Shown here: piece by piece, positions 2,383 through 18,710 of the stretch
How the letters are laid out: the number at the start of each line of letters is the position of its first letter
Numbering within the stretch: position 1 is the first letter of the stretch
Source of the DNA: Phycisphaera mikurensis NBRC 102666
GTDB lineage: Bacteria > Planctomycetota > Phycisphaerae > Phycisphaerales > Phycisphaeraceae
Reading direction: 5' to 3'
Length of the DNA: 32,000 nt
Assembly: GCF_000284115.1 (NCBI RefSeq)
Contig: NC_017080.1
Span: 2,010,001-2,042,000 of the forward strand
The notes under the pieces: generated by a model
Told to the model about the DNA's origin: nothing
The model's database searches: none
The model's input: the letters and a program-made list of their open reading frames with translations, nothing else
Translations under genes and position numbers: made by a program

Positions 2383-2805
2383 TCACCGCGACGCCGCGTC
2401 GAGCTCGACCAGATCGCGTGCGAGCAGCAGGCGGAGGAAGGCCGAGACGCTCTCCTGCGCTTCAGCGAAGGGCAGCTTGTGGGCCTCGGCGAAGGCCTCG
2501 ATCACCTCCTCCACGCGACGGCCGCGGCCGAGCAGCTCGTACACCTCCCGCCCGAGCGGGTCGAGGTCGACCGTGCGCGTCTGCGGCACCGGCACCACCC
2601 ACGAGATCGGCGGGAAGGCCCACCAGGGGCGGGCGGCCGGCCGCGTCACGCGGAGGCCGTCGCCCCGCGGCCGGGCCGTCGCCGCGGCGGCCGGGCGGGC
2701 GGTCGCGGCGAGCAGCCGCTGGGGCGTGTGGAGCGCCGCTTGGGCTTCGCGGCGCCGGGCCTGCTGGCGGGCGGCTTGCTGGCTCACGGGGCGGCGGTGC
2801 TTCAT
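2383..2805 (-). CDS. PqqD-family (RiPP-recognition-element-like) protein with a basic N-terminal extension
   Basis: The C-terminal ~85 aa, VDLDPLGREVYELLGRGRRVEEVIEAFAEAHKLPFAEAQESVSAFLRLLLARDLVEL, match the PqqD/RRE winged-helix pattern (xxGxxIWELxDGxRTVEEIxxxLxxxYxVxxxxAxxDVxxFLxxL). I chose the ATG at 2805 (MKHRRP...). The upstream part of the track ORF is Pro/Arg junk. Confidence 0.6.
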   Translation of the reverse strand: MKHRRPVSQQAARQQARRREAQAALHTPQRLLAATARPAAAATARPRGDGLRVTRPAARPWWAFPPISWVVPVPQTRTVDLDPLGREVYELLGRGRRVEEVIEAFAEAHKLPFAEAQESVSAFLRLLLARDLVELDAASR

Positions 2806-2864
2806 GCGGGCAGCGTCGCCGGCCGCGCCCGGCGGCGTCAAGCCGCACGCCGGCGGGCGTGGCG

Positions 2865-3761
2865 TCAGGCGGGCGGGAGCAGGCCGGCCGGGTCGGGCAG
2901 CTCCGCCCGCCGGGGGCCGCGGACGGTGACGCCGAGCACGGCCTGCTGGGCGGCGTCGTGCCAGAGGAGGTCGCGGCGGAGGCGGGCTCTGCCCGCGAGC
3001 CGGGCCCAAGGGCGGCACGGCTCGGGCCCCGCGGCGGCCACCGCGCCGGCCGGAGCCCCCGCCGCCGCGGGCACCGGCACCAGCCCCGGGGGCGTGCTCT
3101 CACCCAGCAGCGCCGCCGCATCGCCGCCGAACCAGGCGCTGGCCATGCCGCGCCGCCAGAAGCGGGCGGTCAGGCCGCCGGGGCCCGTGAACGCCAGGAC
3201 GGACGCGGCGGGGGTGTGGCGGACCGAAGCCGCCGCCCAGCCCGGCGGGGCGGCGGCGTCGAGGCCGAAGGCGGTCCACCGCGTGGCGTTGCCGGGGAGG
3301 GTCGCCGGCGCGGCGGAGGCCAGCAGCCGCAGCGTCTGCTCCGAGGGCACCCGGCCCCGGGCCCGGGGATCCAGCAGCACCGCGTCGACGAGCAGCCCGC
3401 CCACCGCGGCCACCGCATCGGTGCGGGTGCCGCCGGCGGGGGCGTCGCCGATCCAGCCGGACCAGCGGACCGGCGCCCGCCCCGGGTCCGCGGCCGGGCG
3501 ATCCGCGGGCAGCACCGCCTCCAGCGACCGCAGCTCGGGCGGCGGCTCCAGCGGGCCGCGTTCGCCGGCCGCGGCCTCCACCCGCTTCCGCCAGTCGCGG
3601 GCCAGGGCCGCGGCGTCGGGCGTCGGGCCGGCGGGCAACGCCGACCAGGTGAGCTGCAGCCGCTGCCGCCGGCGGTCGACCATCACCAGCCGCCCGGCCC
3701 GCCGGTTGAGGTCGTTCCGCACCGCCGCGAAGTCCACCGGCGCCTCGAAGGCCAGCCCCAT
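2865..3761 (-). CDS. Hypothetical protein (298 aa), unknown function
   Basis: Long ORF with a mixed amino-acid composition from MGLAFEAPVDFAAVRNDL onward. It ends 59 nt upstream of the PqqD-like gene on the same strand. Start chosen at the internal ATG at 3761. I recognise no motif. Confidence 0.45.
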   Translation of the reverse strand: MGLAFEAPVDFAAVRNDLNRRAGRLVMVDRRRQRLQLTWSALPAGPTPDAAALARDWRKRVEAAAGERGPLEPPPELRSLEAVLPADRPAADPGRAPVRWSGWIGDAPAGGTRTDAVAAVGGLLVDAVLLDPRARGRVPSEQTLRLLASAAPATLPGNATRWTAFGLDAAAPPGWAAASVRHTPAASVLAFTGPGGLTARFWRRGMASAWFGGDAAALLGESTPPGLVPVPAAAGAPAGAVAAAGPEPCRPWARLAGRARLRRDLLWHDAAQQAVLGVTVRGPRRAELPDPAGLLPPA

Positions 3762-3880
3762 CCACGCCCAGCGGCACCACGCGGCGGCTCGTGTTGGTTC
3801 GGGTGCCGGCAACCGGCGAGGGTACGGCCGGGCTTCTACCCTTCCCCCGGCCCGAACCCGTTCCCGTTCCCGGAGACAAC

Positions 3881-4432
3881 ATGCCGCTTCCCCGCACCCC
3901 GCTGCCGCTCCCGCTCGCCCTGCTCGCGGTCGCTCTGCCCGCACTCCACACGCAGGAGGCGCGGGGGAGCGAGGGCGACCCGCCGGCGAGGTTCAGCCCC
4001 GCGGCGCTCGCCGAGCGGAACACCGAGGTCGCCGGCCGCAGCGCCATCCCGCAGCCGGGCGAAGGCTTCCCCGCGCCGCTCGCTTTCGAGACGCGGGCGC
4101 CGGTGAAGATCCCCTTCGTGGCCGAGGGGCAGGTCGTGCCTTGGGAGGAGGCCGCCGGCTACGTCGGCGGCGACAGGATCGTGGTGCAGGGGACGATCGT
4201 CGACACGTACCAGGTCAACAACGGCCCCTGCCTGCTCAAGTTCGACGCGAAGGACCGCGACGCCTTCCTGATCGCGGCGTTCCTGGAGGGCGCACCGGGC
4301 CTGGCGGCGCCGCCGGCGGAGCTCTACCGCGGGAAGGTCGTCCGGGTGAGCGGGCCGGTGACGCCGTACAAGGGCAACCCGCAGATCGTCGTCAGCGACC
4401 CCTCGCAGATCGAGATCGTCGGGGTGCGCTGA
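3881..4432 (+). CDS. Secreted protein with C-terminal OB-fold-like domain
   Basis: ATG at 3881 gives the signal-like MPLPRTPLPLPLALLAVALPALHT. The C-terminus (VVQGTIVDTYQVNNGPCLLKF...YRGKVVRVSGPVTPYKGNPQIVVSDPSQIEIV) follows the pattern of small bacterial OB-fold domains. Confidence 0.55.
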   Translation: MPLPRTPLPLPLALLAVALPALHTQEARGSEGDPPARFSPAALAERNTEVAGRSAIPQPGEGFPAPLAFETRAPVKIPFVAEGQVVPWEEAAGYVGGDRIVVQGTIVDTYQVNNGPCLLKFDAKDRDAFLIAAFLEGAPGLAAPPAELYRGKVVRVSGPVTPYKGNPQIVVSDPSQIEIVGVR

Positions 4433-4603
4433 GCGCCGCCGCTTTGTCGCCGATTTCGGCGAGCGGGGCGGAGGGCGGATGCGTGCGAGGTCCGCGTGCC
4501 ATGGAGGCGCTTCGCGCCCGTCGCTCTGCCCCGGGCCGCGGGCAGCCGCCGCCCGGGCCGCGGGGGGCAAGGCTCCGGGAACCGCTGCGACGTCCGGGGC
4601 GCG

Positions 4604-4742
4604 GATGAGCGAGAAGCGGGGAGCCCGCGTGGTCGCGGCTTCGATTTGCTTCGGTTGCAATGAGCTTCTACATCGACGGAGTCGATGAGCCACCTGGGCG
4701 GGTGGCTCATTCACTCCGTGGATGTGGCGGCTGAGGCGAGCG
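4604..4742 (+). repeat. Repeat unit 1 (A-type)
   Basis: Contains GCGGG-GAG-CCCGC, then ttgcttcggttgcaatgagcttc, then the long hairpin centred on 4685-4710. An 84-nt micro-ORF at 4605-4688 encodes MSEKRGARVVAASICFGCNELLHRRSR. Confidence 0.85.
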
Positions 4743-4882
4743 GATGAGCTGGAAGCGGGGAACCACGCTTGATCGCGGCTTCGGGCCGTCTCGGTTGCAT
4801 TCGGCTTCTACATCGACGGAGTCGATGAGCCACCTGGGCGGGTGGCTCATCCACTCCGTGGATGTGGCGGCTTGGGGGCACG
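4743..4882 (+). repeat. Repeat unit 2 (B-type, 140 bp)
   Basis: Contains AAGCG...CGCTT, then gggccgtctcggttgcattcggcttc, then the hairpin at 4825-4850. One extra G in the G-run relative to unit 4 shifts the micro-ORF frame. Confidence 0.85.
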
Positions 4883-5021
4883 GATGAGCGGGAAGCGGGA
4901 AGCCCGCTTGGTCGCGGCTTCGGGTTGCTTCGGTTGCAATGAGCTTCTACATCGACGGAGTCGATGAGCCACCTGGGCGGGTGGCTCATCCACTCCGTGG
5001 ATGTGGCGGCTTGGGCGGACG
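4883..5021 (+). repeat. Repeat unit 3 (A-type)
   Basis: Contains AAGCGGG-AAG-CCCGCTT and the hairpin at 4964-4989. The micro-ORF at 4884-4967 encodes MSGKREARLVAASGCFGCNELLHRRSR. Confidence 0.85.
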
Positions 5022-5160
5022 GATGAGCTGGAAGCGGGAACCCCGCCCGGTCGCGGCTTCGGGCCGTCTCGATTGCATTCGGCTTCTACATCGACGGAGT
5101 CGATGAGCCACCTGGGCGGGTGGCTCATTCACTCCGTGGATGTGGCGGCGTAGGGGCGCA
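5022..5160 (+). repeat. Repeat unit 4 (B-type)
   Basis: Contains GCGGG-AAC-CCCGC and the hairpin at 5103-5128. The micro-ORF at 5023-5106 encodes MSWKREPRPVAASGRLDCIRLLHRRSR. Confidence 0.85.
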
Positions 5161-5262
5161 GATGAGCGGGAAGCGGGAAGCCCGCCCGGCTGCGGCTTCG
5201 GTCCGTTTCGGTTGCAGTCGGCTGCTAGATCGACGGAGCCGATGAGCCACCTGTGGGCGGAG
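5161..5262 (+). repeat. Repeat unit 5 (degenerate terminal copy)
   Basis: The 5' half is conserved. The 3' arm of the long hairpin is lost (gatgagccacctgtgggcggagaagcc). The micro-ORF at 5162-5245 is still open and encodes MSGKREARPAAASVRFGCSRLLDRRSR. Confidence 0.7.
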
Positions 5263-5327
5263 AAGCCGCGTGGTCGTGCTAGCCTCGGGCGTGGCCGTTC
5301 GGCCGATCCGTCGCCTCTTGATCGCCC

Positions 5328-6122
5328 ATGCCGAAGGACCCGCGCAATGCCCTGCTCGTCTCGCGTCTGGACGTCCACGCCGGCCTCTCGGTCTTCGGGG
5401 TGAAGCTCAAGGAGGGCCCGCCCCCGGCTTTCCTCCCCGGGCAGTACGCGACGCTGGGCATCGAGAACGCGGCGGGCAAGCTGGTCCGGCGCGCGTACTC
5501 CGTCGCGTCGGCCCCGGGCGCGGCGTACGACGCCGACGGCGTGCTGCACTTCTACGTGGTCAAGGTCGACGGCGGCGCGCTCACCCCGTCGCTCTTCGAC
5601 CTCCGCGTCGGCGACGAGCTCTTCCTCTCGCCGCGGCTGGGCGGCCACTTCGTGCTGGGGCCCGGCGACCCGGACCGGGACCTGGTGATGGTCGCCACCG
5701 GCACCGGCACCGCGCCCTTCCGCAGCATGCTGCGGGCCGAGGCGGCGCTGCCGCCGGCCGAACGCACCGGCCGCCGGCGCGTGCTCATCGAGGGCTGCCG
5801 CGTCGCCGAAGACCTCGGCTTCTTCGACGAGCTCAACGCGCTCGCCGCCGCGGATCCCGCGTTCGTCTACCTGCCGACGGTCACCCGCGAGCCCGATTCC
5901 TCCGCTTGGTCCGGCCGGCGCGGCCGCGTGAACGCGCTGCTGAAGCCCGACGCCTTTCTGGCCGCCGCCGGCTTCCCCCTCGATCCGGCAAGCACGGCCG
6001 TCTTCCTCTGCGGCAACCCGCAGATGATCGACCAGGCCGAGGAGGAGCTGACCGACCGCGGGTTCCGGGTCCGGGACCGGAAGAACCCGGACGGGAACGT
6101 GGTCTTCGAGCGGTACTGGTGA
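5328..6122 (+). CDS. fpr: Ferredoxin-NADP+ reductase (bacterial Fpr type)
   Basis: RAYSVAS matches the RxYS FAD-binding motif. MVATGTGTAPFRSM matches the GTGxAP NADP-binding motif. The C-terminus VVFERYW is typical of the family. ATG at 5328. Confidence 0.85.
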   Translation: MPKDPRNALLVSRLDVHAGLSVFGVKLKEGPPPAFLPGQYATLGIENAAGKLVRRAYSVASAPGAAYDADGVLHFYVVKVDGGALTPSLFDLRVGDELFLSPRLGGHFVLGPGDPDRDLVMVATGTGTAPFRSMLRAEAALPPAERTGRRRVLIEGCRVAEDLGFFDELNALAAADPAFVYLPTVTREPDSSAWSGRRGRVNALLKPDAFLAAAGFPLDPASTAVFLCGNPQMIDQAEEELTDRGFRVRDRKNPDGNVVFERYW

Positions 6123-16122: not shown

Positions 16123-17538
<1,416 letters not shown>

Positions 17539-17730
17539 GGGGCGGAGAGGGTAGAGGGGGGGAGAAGAGACGAAGGGACGAAGAGGCGGCGGCGCTGTCT
17601 CTCCACTCCGCTTCGCCCCAGCCGCCACGGCGAACCTCGCGGAGCGTGCGGCCTTGCTGCACGACGACCTCCCGCGGCGTCGCTTCGCTTCGTTGGTCCG
17701 CGGAGCGGACGCCCGCCCGTAGCCTTGCCC

Positions 17731-18594
17731 ATGATCGTCTACGCCGACGGTGGCTTCCGCGAGAAGGACGAGGCCTTCTATCCGCTGGAGGAGCGGGGCG
17801 TGCTCTTCGCCGACGGCGTGTACGAGGTGGTGCGGTACGACCGGGGGCGGCCCTTCGAGATGGACGCCCACGTGCGACGGCTGCGAGCGTCCCTGGCGGG
17901 GATCGGGCTGCCGTGGCCGGGCGTGGAGGCGGCGGCGTCGCTGTCCGACGAGCTGGTGCGACGCAACGGGCTTCCGGATGCGCGGGTGTACTGGCAGGTG
18001 ACGCGGTCGGCGGCGGGCGGGCCGGGGAAGCGGAGCTTCGTGCATCCCGAGAAGCCCGAGCCCGCGATCACGATGATCGCGTACCCGGCGGAGCCGCTGG
18101 ACCCCGCGGCCCCCGTGGAGGCCGGCGAGGCCGTCATCGTCGAGGACGTGCGGTGGCACCGCTGCGGCATCAAGTCGCTGATGCTGCTGCCGGCGTCGAT
18201 GGCGAAGACCGAGGCGAAGCGGCGGGGCGCCGTGGAGGCGCTCTTCGAGCGGGCGAAGCCGGGGGCGGCCGGGACGCACATCACGGAGGGCTCGTCGACG
18301 AACGCCTTCGCCGTGATCGGCGGCGTGCTCCGGACCCACCCCGCAGACGGCTGGGTGCTCGCGGGCGTGACGCGGGCGGTCCTGCTGGAGGCGGCGCGGT
18401 CCGCGGCGCTCGCGGTGGAGGAGCGGGCGTTCACGCGGGCGGAGCTGCTGGCGGCTTCGGAGGCCTTCGCGTGCTCGACGACGCAGGTGACGGCGCTCAC
18501 GTCGGTGGAGGGGACGCCGATCGGCGGCGGGAAGGCCGGGGAGGTGACGCGGCGCCTCGCCGCGGCGTACGTGCGCCGCGTGCTGGGCGCGTGA
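17731..18594 (+). CDS. Class IV aminotransferase (D-amino-acid / branched-chain type)
   Basis: ATG at 17731. FADGVYEVVRY and RHLxRL-like HVRRLRASL are present. IKSLMLLP contains the candidate PLP lysine. TEGSSTNAF is also present. Confidence 0.75.
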   Translation: MIVYADGGFREKDEAFYPLEERGVLFADGVYEVVRYDRGRPFEMDAHVRRLRASLAGIGLPWPGVEAAASLSDELVRRNGLPDARVYWQVTRSAAGGPGKRSFVHPEKPEPAITMIAYPAEPLDPAAPVEAGEAVIVEDVRWHRCGIKSLMLLPASMAKTEAKRRGAVEALFERAKPGAAGTHITEGSSTNAFAVIGGVLRTHPADGWVLAGVTRAVLLEAARSAALAVEERAFTRAELLAASEAFACSTTQVTALTSVEGTPIGGGKAGEVTRRLAAAYVRRVLGA

Positions 18595-18620
18595 AAAACC
18601 CCGCTTTCGCGGGGTTTCTC
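18594..18620. terminator. Bidirectional intrinsic terminator hairpin between the aminotransferase gene and tRNA-Ser
   Basis: The sequence is AAAAACCCCGC-TTTC-GCGGGGTTTCTC. Read on the minus strand, the stem is followed by TTTTT directly after the tRNA 3' end. On the plus strand it follows the TGA at 18592-18594. Confidence 0.55.
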
Positions 18621-18623
18621 AAG

Positions 18624-18710
18624 CGGAGAGACAGGGATTCGAACCCTGGGTGCACTTGCATGCACACACGAATTCCAGTCGTGCGCCTTAAACCACTCAG
18701 CCATCTCTCC
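18624..18710 (-). tRNA. tRNA-Ser (anticodon GGA)
   Basis: Minus-strand read GGAGAGA-TG-GCTGAGTGGTTTAAGGCG-CACGA-CTGGAAT-TCGTG-(long variable arm GTGCATGCAAGTGCAC)-CAGGGTTCGAATCCCTG-TCTCTCC-G. The 7-bp acceptor stem, the TTCGAAT T-loop and the long variable arm fit a class II Ser tRNA. CCA is not encoded. Confidence 0.9.

What the first reader, a model, noticed from the sequence alone, without database searches (positions are those of the whole stretch)
4604..5262. Tandem array of ~139-bp two-hairpin units, each also carrying an 84-nt micro-ORF
**Array layout (seen in the sequence).**
- Five head-to-tail units fill the gap between the OB-fold gene and fpr.
- Units alternate between two subtypes (A: 1, 3, 5; B: 2, 4). 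This points to expansion by duplication of a ~278-bp dimer.

**Structure of each unit.**
- A small 5' hairpin keeps its GCGGG/CCCGC stem while the loop and flanks vary. Forms seen are AAGCGGG-AAG-CCCGCTT, GCGGG-GAG-CCCGC, GCGGG-AAC-CCCGC and AAGCG...CGCTT.
- A ~75-nt imperfect hairpin is nearly identical in units 1-4: CTACATCGACGGAGTCG-ATGAGCCACC-TGGGCG-GGTGGCTCAT-YC-ACTCCGTGGATGTGG.
- One arm position of the long hairpin is T opposite G. That is a wobble pair only if the plus strand is the RNA.

**Micro-ORFs.**
- The ATG of the first GATGAGC motif and the TGA of the second bound an open 27-codon frame in units 1, 3, 4 and 5.
- The peptides are basic and Cys-containing, with a conserved LL(H/D)RRSR tail.
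- Unit 2 is frameshifted by one extra G.
- All differences between A-type copies are non-synonymous. The most conserved part is the hairpin rather than the ORF, so I favour a structured RNA or REP/BIME-like element over coding.

**Assessment.** I know of no described family with this unit. Tandem micro-ORFs (a small-protein or precursor-peptide array) remain a live alternative. A PqqD-like RRE gene lies 1.8 kb upstream.
Basis: partly seen in the sequence, partly recalled or inferred. Interest (0 to 1): 0.7.

Follow-up and report, generated by a model that had tools for sequence, protein, structure and literature searches.

The report
Orphan tandem array of nested palindromes
Between two ordinary genes of the marine bacterium Phycisphaera mikurensis lies a real, non-coding array of five 139-bp repeats, each built around a strong hairpin, that was found in no relative or public collection searched, so it is a species-specific curiosity of unknown use and not a peptide or known RNA family.

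Summary
Window 4596-5262 carries 4.7 head-to-tail copies of a 139-bp unit with a weaker 278-bp (A/B dimer) periodicity. Units 1-4 each end in a nearly invariant 70-nt hairpin (-52.8 kcal/mol, z -8.7). An independent draft assembly of the same species matches base for base.

The source is Phycisphaera mikurensis. The array lies in an 895-bp spacer between a secreted OB-fold protein gene and fpr. Two relatives that keep this gene pair have spacers of 116 and 164 bp and no array.

The unit was found nowhere else:
- not in the rest of the window;
- not in the eight related loci held;
- not by seed scans of 185,579 reference genomes, JGI metagenomes or viral contigs;
- not by BLAST of plasmids and phages;
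- not in Rfam;
- not in 5.8 billion proteins searched with a six-frame translation.

The micro-ORFs exist but do not look coding. ORF-a has GC3 0.58 against 0.87-0.97 in genes. There is no codon periodicity, variable sites fall 8/8/5 by codon position, and unit 2 is frameshifted. The PqqD gene cluster is conserved in a relative that lacks the array.

New here: each hairpin arm is itself a perfect 7-3-7 palindrome. The hairpin half also changes far less than the 5' half.

Verdict: a lineage-specific non-coding minisatellite of nested palindromes. Its function is unproven. Interest is modest.

The parts
4596..5285 (+). Whole tandem array: 4 full units plus a degenerate fifth. The strand is assigned from G.U pairs and G+T skew only.
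   Evidence: TRF period 139, 4.7 copies, and period 278, 2.4 copies. Covariance model R1 scores u1-u4 at 154-161 bits and u5 at 58 bits. GC is 0.64-0.69 against 0.73-0.84 in the flanks, and GC skew is +0.12 to +0.24.
4596..4734 (+). Unit 1 (A type)
   Evidence: Alignment A1. It differs from u3 at 8 positions and from u2 and u4 at 18-21.
4735..4873 (+). Unit 2 (B type). It has a 1-nt insertion in the 5' hairpin.
4874..5012 (+). Unit 3 (A type), used as the reference unit
5013..5151 (+). Unit 4 (B type)
5152..5285 (+). Unit 5. It is a degenerate edge copy, a mosaic of A and B states, and its right hairpin arm is lost.
   Evidence: z -1.0; 57.8 bits.
4942..5011 (+). Long hairpin of unit 3. It has 30 pairs, two 1x1 mismatches (G.G and C.C) and a 4-6 nt loop. 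The equivalents are 4663-4732, 4803-4872 and 5081-5150.
   Evidence: Energy -52.8 kcal/mol, z -8.74. Arms are listed.
4950..4966 (.). Left local palindrome CATCGAC-GGA-GTCGATG (7-3-7), inside the left arm of the long hairpin
   Evidence: Folds alone at -8.3 kcal/mol. Present 4 times exactly in the window and only in the array.
4966..4987 (.). Central palindrome GAGCCACC-TGGGCG-GGTGGCTC
   Evidence: Folds alone at -17.3 kcal/mol. The 27-mer occurs 4 times exactly and only in the array.
4987..5003 (.). Right local palindrome CATCCAC-TCC-GTGGATG (7-3-7). In u1 and u4 it reads CATTCAC.
   Evidence: Folds alone at -9.3 kcal/mol. Occurrences are listed.
4893..4909 (+). Small 5' hairpin AAGCGGG-AAG-CCCGCTT of unit 3. 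The GCGGG/CCCGC core is kept in u1, u3, u4 and u5 and disturbed in u2.
   Evidence: Sequence. Pairs 22-35 to 26-30.
4884..4967 (+). Micro-ORF a of unit 3, 27 codons. The others are 4605-4688, 5023-5106 and 5162-5245. In u2 the ORF 4744-4887 is frameshifted to 47 codons.
   Evidence: GC3 is 0.58. Judged non-coding.
4964..5026 (+). Micro-ORF b of unit 3, 20 codons, chained to ORF a by ATGA overlaps. The others are 4685-4747, 4825-4887 and 5103-5153 (16 codons, ends early at TAG).
3881..4432 (+). Upstream gene: a 183-aa secreted protein with a weak OB-fold match
   Evidence: P0078 is 100% identical, named hypothetical protein of Phycisphaera mikurensis. Pfam tRNA_anti-codon E 0.011, below cut-off. 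The L050 orthologue is 62% identical.
5328..6122 (+). Downstream gene fpr (ferredoxin-NADP reductase)
   Evidence: Pfam NAD_binding_1 and FAD_binding_6. P0001 is 100% identical, P. mikurensis.
4434..4477 (+). Hairpin directly after the OB-gene stop codon, a possible terminator. It is not part of the repeat.
   Evidence: Fold. Not better than shuffles (z -0.7), so tentative.

Best explanation
The array is a lineage-specific, non-coding minisatellite in the OB-gene/fpr spacer of Phycisphaera mikurensis.

**Origin (inferred).** A ~139-bp segment carrying three abutting palindromes, which together form a 30-bp hairpin, was amplified head to tail. It first diverged into two subtypes (A and B). It then expanded as a 278-bp dimer by unequal recombination or replication slippage. 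The copy at the fpr edge has since decayed.

**What is shown.**
- It encodes no peptide.
- It belongs to no described RNA or repeat family.

**Likely mechanism (inferred, not shown).** If it has any effect, that effect most likely comes when the spacer is transcribed on the + strand, the strand shared with both flanking genes. Each unit would then fold into a very stable hairpin. A row of four such hairpins would behave like REP/BIME-type elements in other bacteria. They would block 3'-to-5' exonucleases and so stabilise the upstream OB-gene message. They would also impede read-through into fpr.
For: **The array is real and is not in relatives.**
- Array and hairpin statistics.
- Identical sequence in an independent assembly.
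- Relatives that keep the OB-gene/fpr pair have spacers of 116 bp (L050) and 164 bp (L052, L053) without the unit. Relatives with other neighbours of fpr also lack it.

**The unit was found nowhere else.**
- No copy in the rest of the window.
- The seed scans gave only ~20-nt chance matches in 185,579 reference genomes, in JGI metagenomes and in viral contigs.
- BLAST of a 278-bp A+B dimer gave no match in plasmids or phages.
- Six-frame translation against 5.8 billion proteins gave no hit.
- Rfam has no family for it.

**It is non-coding.**
- GC by codon position in ORF a is 0.65/0.58/0.58, while genes of the window have GC3 0.87-0.97.
- No phase-specific GC3 across 4600-5250.
- Variable sites fall 8/8/5 by codon position.
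- u2 is frameshifted.
- 139 and 278 are not multiples of 3.
- No gene is called in the array in the draft assembly loci.

**Dimer history and edge decay.**
- 9 diagnostic A/B columns; u5 is a mosaic and has lost its right arm.

**+ strand.**
- Four hairpin pairs are G.U on + and would be A.C on -.
- Unit energies are -77 to -85 kcal/mol on + against -60 to -65 on -.
- GC skew is positive.
- Both flanking genes are on +.
Against: - No transcription data exist.
- No sigma-70-like promoter is found, and there is no U-tract after the hairpins.
- The hairpin half is far more uniform than a neutral repeat should be. Variable columns are 21 of 69 in the 5' half against 1 of 60 in the hairpin core (p 7.5e-6). 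After the dimer duplication the differences are 17 of 138 against 3 of 140 (p 9e-4).
- The two mismatches of the long hairpin are compensated within each arm, so both local 7-3-7 palindromes are perfect.
- These two features suggest sequence-level constraint. That would fit a dedicated RNA or a protein-binding site better than passive DNA. Local gene conversion, or slippage-prone short TTCGG repeats in the 5' half, could also produce the pattern.
- REP-like function is an analogy only.
Confidence: 0.5

Rival explanations
1. It is an array of sibling small RNAs, or one modular structured RNA. Each ~139-nt unit would be transcribed or processed from the + strand. The conserved hairpin would be the functional core, possibly switching between a 30-bp rod and a three-hairpin form.
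For: - The hairpin core is nearly invariant while the 5' half varies.
- G.U pairs occur only on the + strand.
- The A/B difference CC/UU in the GCGGC-UUCGG-GYYGY stem keeps pairing as G-C or G.U. This is read from the alignment; RNAalifold chose a different pairing for these columns.
- Local palindromes are perfect through a two-sided change.
- GC is lower than in the flanks, as expected for RNA genes in a high-GC genome.
Against: - No promoter-like site and no U-tract terminator in any unit.
- RNAalifold finds 0 pairs with a two-sided compensatory change among the units.
- No homologue in any collection searched, so there is no covariation support.
- No Rfam family.
- Absent from the closest relatives.
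Confidence: 0.2
2. It is a DNA-level array of protein-binding sites. The three abutting dyad-symmetric sites per unit (CATCSAC-N3-GTSGATG twice, GAGCCACC-N6-GGTGGCTC once) would be operators for a dimeric DNA-binding protein. The array would resemble the tandem repeats with 7-bp inverted repeats of plasmid centromeres such as sopC, or a titration site.
For: - Sequence invariance without compensatory drift.
- The 7-3-7 geometry is typical of operators. The paired G-to-C and C-to-G difference between the left and right sites keeps each site's own dyad symmetry.
- The GATGAGC motif recurs two or three times in direct orientation and once inverted per unit.
Against: - No partition, regulator or mobile-element gene lies next to it. 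The window holds housekeeping genes.
- The 17-bp site occurs nowhere else in the window or in relatives' loci.
- The strand-asymmetric G.T positions have no meaning for duplex binding.
Confidence: 0.15
3. It is a member of a dispersed REP/BIME, ERIC or MITE family that happens to be clustered here.
For: It is an imperfect palindrome in an intergenic region. A different element with 61-nt terminal inverted repeats sits upstream of fpr in the relative L024, so this spacer accepts insertions.
Against: - There is no other copy in 32 kb.
- There is no match to the 19-nt seed in any reference genome, including, if the genome is held there, the rest of this one.
- No terminal inverted repeats or target-site duplication bracket the unit.
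- The apparent footprint in L050 is not better than chance (46 of 300 shuffles).
Confidence: 0.06
4. It is a chain of translated micro-ORFs (27 and 20 aa, coupled by ATGA overlaps). They would be small proteins or RiPP precursors served by the PqqD-like gene.
For: - Open frames occur in four of five units, with ATGA start/stop overlaps.
- A PqqD-like gene lies 1.8 kb upstream.
- ORF b has GC3 of 0.79-0.87.
Against: - ORF a has GC3 0.58, there is no codon periodicity, and variable sites fall 8/8/5 by codon position.
- u2 is frameshifted and ORF b of u4 stops early.
- An open frame of 20-27 codons is expected by chance at this GC content (my estimate, about 0.55-0.65 per frame).
- The right frame relation of the two ATGA motifs has a chance of about 1 in 9.
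- PqqD, gene X and the OB gene are conserved together in L051 without any array.
- PqqD is on the other strand and two genes away.
- No similar protein is on record.
Confidence: 0.04

Closest known systems
REP/BIME elements of enterobacteria and pseudomonads
   Same: Both are intergenic imperfect palindromes that occur in clusters. The role proposed here, RNA hairpins that stabilise upstream mRNA and hinder read-through, is borrowed from them (my knowledge of the family).
   Different: REPs are 20-40 nt, have a 5' GTAG head, occur in hundreds of dispersed copies, alternate in orientation within BIMEs and go with a RAYT transposase. Here the hairpin is 70 nt, the units are direct repeats at one locus, the + strand starts with CTAC rather than GTAG, and no RAYT-like gene is in the window.
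MIRU minisatellites of Mycobacterium
   Same: Both are tandem intergenic repeats between co-directional genes in a high-GC genome. Both carry small ORFs with overlapping stop and start codons (my knowledge of the family).
   Different: MIRUs are 46-101 bp, occur at about 40 loci per genome, and their ORFs overlap the flanking genes' codons. Here there is one locus, the units are 139 bp, the ATGA chain does not connect to the OB gene or to fpr, and a long hairpin dominates the unit.
Tandem sibling sRNA genes (for example LhrC1-4 of Listeria, PrrF1/2 of Pseudomonas)
   Same: Both are head-to-tail copies of a ~100-140-nt structured unit in one intergenic region.
   Different: Each of those genes has its own promoter and U-tract terminator and is conserved across a genus. 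Here no such signals are found, and the array is missing from the closest relatives.
sopC-type plasmid centromeres
   Same: Both are direct tandem repeats that each contain 7-bp inverted repeats.
   Different: sopC units are 43 bp and lie next to sopAB on a plasmid. Here the units are 139 bp and chromosomal, and no partition genes are nearby.

Membership tests
Any Rfam 15 RNA family | Match at or above the family's gathering score | tested here: not met
   The only gathering-level hit in the window is a tRNA at 18624-18710. In 4400-5400 the best hits are miRNA-precursor models at 37 and 30 bits against cut-offs of 196 and 100.
REP/BIME | Many dispersed copies per genome | tested here: not met
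   No copy outside the array in the 32-kb window. The 19-nt seed gave only chance hits in the reference genomes. Whether the rest of this genome was in that collection could not be verified.
REP/BIME | 20-40-nt palindrome preceded by a conserved GTAG head | tested here: not met
   The hairpin is 70 nt. The + strand begins CTAC and ends GTGG, so GTAG is at the 3' end of the - strand only.
REP/BIME | Associated RAYT (TnpA-REP) gene | not testable with these tools
   None among the ORFs scanned in the window. The rest of the genome could not be read.
MITE | Terminal inverted repeats flanked by a target-site duplication, and multiple copies | tested here: not met
   The inverted repeat is internal to each unit, and the units are direct repeats. 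The empty-site comparison with L050 is not significant. There is a single locus.
MIRU-like minisatellite | Tandem intergenic repeat of fixed period between co-directional genes | tested here: met
   Period 139, 4.7 copies, between the OB gene (+) and fpr (+).
MIRU-like minisatellite | Repeat ORFs overlap the stop and start codons of the flanking genes; many loci per genome | tested here: not met
   The first micro-ORF starts 172 nt after the OB-gene stop. The last frame runs out of frame past the fpr ATG to 5403. There is a single locus.
Sibling sRNA gene array | Own promoter and terminator in each unit | tested here: inconclusive
   There are 0 sigma-70-like sites. Two terminator-like sites is no more than chance. 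Planctomycete promoter types are not covered by the scan.
Sibling sRNA gene array | Structure supported by covariation in homologues | tested here: inconclusive
   No homologues were found. Among the units there are 0 two-sided compensatory pairs in the consensus fold. One compensated change keeps the local palindromes perfect.
RiPP precursor peptides served by a PqqD-like RRE | Translated ORF with the coding signature of the genome | tested here: not met
   GC3 is 0.58 against 0.87-0.97 in genes. Variable sites fall 8/8/5 by codon position. One copy is frameshifted.
RiPP precursor peptides served by a PqqD-like RRE | Precursor co-occurs with the RRE and modifying genes in relatives | tested here: not met
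   L051 keeps PqqD, gene X and the OB gene but has no array.
CRISPR array | Short repeats separated by unique spacers | tested here: not met
   The units abut without spacers.

The most novel reading that the evidence does not exclude
The four intact units are modules of a species-specific structured RNA, or sibling sRNAs, or equally a protein-binding platform. The 60-nt core would be under purifying selection. Its nested-palindrome design would let it switch between a 30-bp rod and three short hairpins, one of which presents a GGA triloop. That would make it a new regulatory element born within the P. mikurensis lineage.
Probability: 0.2. Interest if true: 0.55.

Novelty: new member of a known kind. 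Interest (0 to 1): 0.3.

Why it matters
If the array is only a young minisatellite, it matters little. It would be a useful strain-typing (VNTR) marker. It also explains why short-read assemblies of this species break at this point.

It would matter more if the near-invariance of the hairpin core reflects selection. That would be a case of a structured regulatory element arising de novo in one planctomycete lineage. The empty ancestral spacer is still visible in relatives, so the birth of such an element could be studied directly.

Tried and rejected
- **Known RNA family.** Rfam at gathering and at E up to 10 gave nothing. ARAGORN found no tRNA or tmRNA.
- **Dispersed family.**
  - The seed GACGGAGNCGATGAGCCACC was scanned in reference genomes (20 hits) and JGI metagenomes (22 hits). 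All hits were single ~20-28-nt chance matches.
  - An apical-stem pattern in viral contigs gave two unrelated coding hits.
  - BLAST of the dimer against plasmids and phages gave no match.
Diverged homologues would have been missed.
- **Proxy search.** A six-frame translation of the A+B dimer was searched against 5.8 billion proteins. Nothing scored. Only 8000 candidates were scored, and gene callers may skip such regions.
- **Orthologous loci.** Eight related loci were fetched through fpr and the OB protein. None has the unit, by BLAST or by covariance model R1.
- **Insertion footprint.** In L050 the sequence CGACCGGGGCGCGG-TA-GCGTGGCGGCTGCCT seemed to join the two edges of the array. The score is reached by 46 of 300 shuffles, so I dropped it.
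- **Internal duplication of the unit.** The 5' half compared with the hairpin half is not significant.
- **Self-cleaving ribozymes, retron, attC, CsrA sponge, sigma-54 promoter, DnaA boxes.**
  - Ribozyme families gave no Rfam hit, and retron and attC were dropped on inspection.
  - A CsrA sponge was considered because GGA motifs are frequent, but most lie in stems of the long hairpin.
  - A sigma-54 promoter was considered, but the GG-to-GC spacing is one nt short.
  - DnaA boxes were considered, but the best match is 7 of 9.
  - All were set aside as unsupported.
- **Literature.** Three searches found nothing on this repeat or on sRNAs of this organism.
Full report

Yes. Tandem Repeats Finder reports one array at 4596-5253. 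It has period 139, 4.7 copies, 86% matches and score 957. It also has a 278-bp periodicity: 2.4 copies, 90% matches, score 1078.

Aligning five 139-bp slices gives 87% mean column identity. Units 1-4 each end in a 70-nt hairpin that is identical between them except for one T/C position. For unit 3 the hairpin (4942-5011) folds at -52.8 kcal/mol, against -24.2 ± 3.3 for shuffles (z -8.7). Whole units have z of -5.3 to -7.6, and no shuffle of 200 does as well. Unit 5 has lost the right arm (z -1.0).

The 27-mer at the hairpin tip and the 26-mer at the unit start occur only in the array, with zero expected by chance.

The sequence is not an assembly artefact. Two contigs of an independent draft assembly (GCA_014207395.1) end inside the array. 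One ends at window 5024 and the other starts at 4945. Both match the window with 0 mismatches.

**2. Where is it?**

The fpr product is 100% identical to the ferredoxin-NADP reductase of Phycisphaera mikurensis, on a 3.8-Mb contig. The upstream 183-aa protein is likewise a P. mikurensis hypothetical protein.

Frame-specific GC3 and the draft's gene calls give this map:

| Feature | Coordinates | Strand |
|---|---|---|
| PqqD-like gene | 2383-2805 | - |
| Unknown gene X | 2865-3812 | - |
| Secreted OB-fold-like gene | 3881-4432 | + |
| Spacer holding the array | 4433-5327 (895 bp) | |
| fpr | 5328-6122 | + |
| 5-oxoprolinase subunits, NUDIX and other housekeeping genes | downstream of fpr | |

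No transposase, integrase, reverse transcriptase or partition gene was found in the window.

**3. Is it found anywhere else?**

Nothing was found.

- A BLAST and a covariance model built from units 1-4 (R1) find only the array in the window.
- A 19-nt seed from the left arm gave 20 single hits in 185,579 reference genomes and 22 in JGI metagenomes. All extend only ~20-28 nt, so they are chance matches.
- A tip-of-hairpin pattern in viral contigs hit two unrelated coding sequences.
- BLAST of a 278-bp A+B dimer against plasmids and phages gave no match.
- As a proxy for a wider DNA search, I translated the A+B dimer in all six frames and searched 5.8 billion predicted proteins. Nothing scored.

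Two caveats apply. The large scans used one exact seed. I also could not verify that the rest of the P. mikurensis chromosome was in the genome collection, because the window's own copies were not returned and are presumably masked.

**4. What do relatives have at this place?**

Eight loci were fetched through fpr (74-87% identity) and the OB protein (61-67% identity).

| Locus | Arrangement next to fpr or the OB gene | Array |
|---|---|---|
| L050 | OB gene, 116-bp spacer, fpr; OB 62% identical, E 6e-68 | none |
| L052, L053 | gene X, OB gene, 164-bp spacer, fpr | none |
| L051 | PqqD, gene X, OB gene, without fpr | none |
| L024 | RadC upstream of fpr | none |
| L025, L026 | divergent AsnC-type gene upstream of fpr | none |
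| L049 | a sequence that reads by eye as a tRNA gene upstream of fpr | none |

None contains the unit by BLAST or by model R1.

The 895-bp spacer of P. mikurensis is therefore derived, and the array arose in its lineage. A tempting footprint in L050, where the two array edges appear adjacent, is not better than chance (46 of 300 shuffles). I do not rely on it.

**5. Are the micro-ORFs coding?**

Each unit has a 27-codon ORF a, running from GGATGAGC to the TGA in CGATGAGCC. It also has a 20-codon ORF b, running from that ATG to the TGA in the next GGATGAGC. The array is therefore a chain of ATGA overlaps.

The evidence is against translation:

- ORF a has GC of 0.65/0.58/0.58 by codon position. 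Genes of this window have GC3 of 0.87-0.97.
- No phase stands out anywhere in 4600-5250, while the flanking genes reach 0.95-1.00.
- Variable sites fall 8, 8 and 5 on codon positions 1, 2 and 3. Unit 1 and unit 3 differ by 0 synonymous and 4 non-synonymous codons.
- Unit 2 is frameshifted and ORF b of unit 4 stops early.
- The chain connects neither to the OB-gene stop nor to the fpr start.
- Gene callers placed no gene there.
- At this GC content an open frame of 20-27 codons is more likely than not. The frame relation of the two ATGA motifs has a chance of about 1 in 9 (my estimate).
- The PqqD-like gene is real, but it lies on the other strand and two genes away. It stays with gene X and the OB gene in a relative that has no array.

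The RiPP idea is therefore rejected.

**6. Anatomy not noted before.**

(a) *Each arm of the long hairpin is itself a perfect 7-3-7 palindrome.* In unit 3 the hairpin is three abutting palindromes:

- CATCGAC-GGA-GTCGATG (4950-4966)
- GAGCCACC-TGGGCG-GGTGGCTC (4966-4987)
- CATCCAC-TCC-GTGGATG (4987-5003)

Alone they fold at -8.3, -17.3 and -9.3 kcal/mol.

The two conserved 1x1 mismatches of the long hairpin (G.G and C.C) are exactly each other's partners in the local palindromes. They form G-C in the left one and C-G in the right one. The left and right sites thus differ by a two-sided change that keeps each one's own symmetry. By my rough count this has a chance of the order of 1 in 1000 for two random mismatches. 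It suggests that the local dyads have been maintained, whether as RNA stems or as protein sites.

(b) *Variation is very uneven.* Among units 1-4, 21 of 69 columns vary in the 5' half against 1 of 60 in the hairpin core (Fisher p 7.5e-6). Counting only differences that arose after the dimer duplication (u1 against u3, u2 against u4) gives 17 of 138 against 3 of 140 (p 9e-4).

(c) *Units 1-4 alternate A, B, A, B* at 9 diagnostic columns. Unit 5 is a mosaic of both.

(d) *The + strand is favoured for folding.* Four pairs of the hairpin are G.U on the + strand and would be A.C on the - strand. The + strand is G+T-rich. Units fold 15-20 kcal/mol better on + than on -.

**7. What is it?**

Shown:

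- It is a non-coding repeat at what appears to be a single locus.
- It is specific to this lineage.
- It does not belong to any described family.

Inferred:

- It arose by tandem amplification of a palindrome-bearing segment. It split into two subtypes and then grew in 278-bp steps. The degenerate edge copy is typical of arrays evolving by unequal exchange.
- The most economical mechanism for any effect is the REP/BIME-like one. On a + strand transcript shared with the flanking genes, four very stable hairpins would block exonucleases and hinder read-through. I give this package 0.5.

The uneven conservation and the compensated local palindromes are the main facts it does not explain well. They keep two rivals alive: a sibling-sRNA or modular RNA array (0.2) and an array of dyad-symmetric protein-binding sites (0.15). 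Against the RNA-gene rival, no promoter-like or U-tract terminator signal is found and no covariation is available. Against the DNA-site rival, there is no cognate gene nearby and no other copy of the site. A dispersed REP/MITE identity (0.06) and translated peptides (0.04) are unlikely.

**8. Comparison with known kinds.**

It works most like REP/BIME elements, but it fails their defining features: size, GTAG head, dispersal and alternating orientation. It shares with MIRU minisatellites the tandem intergenic layout and the small ORFs with overlapping stop and start codons. It does not share their multi-locus distribution or their coupling to flanking genes. It resembles tandem sibling sRNA genes only in layout. 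I file it as a new member of the broad, known kind "bacterial intergenic palindromic tandem repeat" and not as a member of any named family.

**9. Verdict.**

The 0.7 interest is too high for what the evidence supports. This is an orphan repeat at what appears to be one locus in one species, with no sign of a dedicated function beyond an oddly well-kept hairpin. Interest 0.3. The more interesting reading, a newly born regulatory element under selection, has a probability of about 0.2 and would merit about 0.55.

Noticed in passing
L024:5625-5898: In the relative with the closest fpr (87%), the spacer upstream of fpr holds a different ~274-bp element. It has 61-nt terminal inverted repeats (79% complementary, 152 nt apart). 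Its ends read CTTATCCACAGAG and CTCTGTGAATAAG, so they contain DnaA-box-like TTATCCACA and TTATTCACA. It looks like a MITE.
   Followed up: partly
window 2383-4432; L051:2037-4032; L052:27-1620: The PqqD-like gene, an unknown ~300-aa gene X (both on the - strand) and the divergently transcribed secreted OB-fold-like gene form a block. The block is conserved in relatives regardless of what follows it. Gene X and the OB protein have no Pfam family above threshold.
   Followed up: partly
upstream of fpr in L024, L025, L049, L050, L052: The position just upstream of fpr is a synteny breakpoint among close relatives. The upstream neighbours are RadC, an AsnC-type regulator, a sequence that reads by eye as a tRNA gene (L049 ~2760-2835, not checked with ARAGORN), or the OB gene. 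The genes downstream of fpr keep their order.
   Followed up: partly
window 18624-18710 (- strand): An 87-nt tRNA with a long variable arm (Rfam tRNA, 56.6 bits). It is the only Rfam gathering-level hit in the window.
   Followed up: no
window 4530-4565: A short direct repeat CCGGGCCGCGGG occurs twice in the non-repeat part of the spacer, left of the array. A hairpin at 4434-4477 follows directly after the OB-gene stop codon and may be its terminator, although it folds no better than shuffles.
   Followed up: partly
window 16123-18618 (- strand): In this 831-codon open frame, the argininosuccinate-lyase domains occupy only residues 379-803. Either the frame is over-extended upstream or the protein has a long N-terminal extension.
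   Followed up: no
window 4945-5024: Short-read assemblies of this species break at the array. Two draft contigs overlap only by the unit-3 hairpin, and two Logan contigs end at 4675 and at about 5127. The copy number therefore rests on the finished genome alone.
   Followed up: yes
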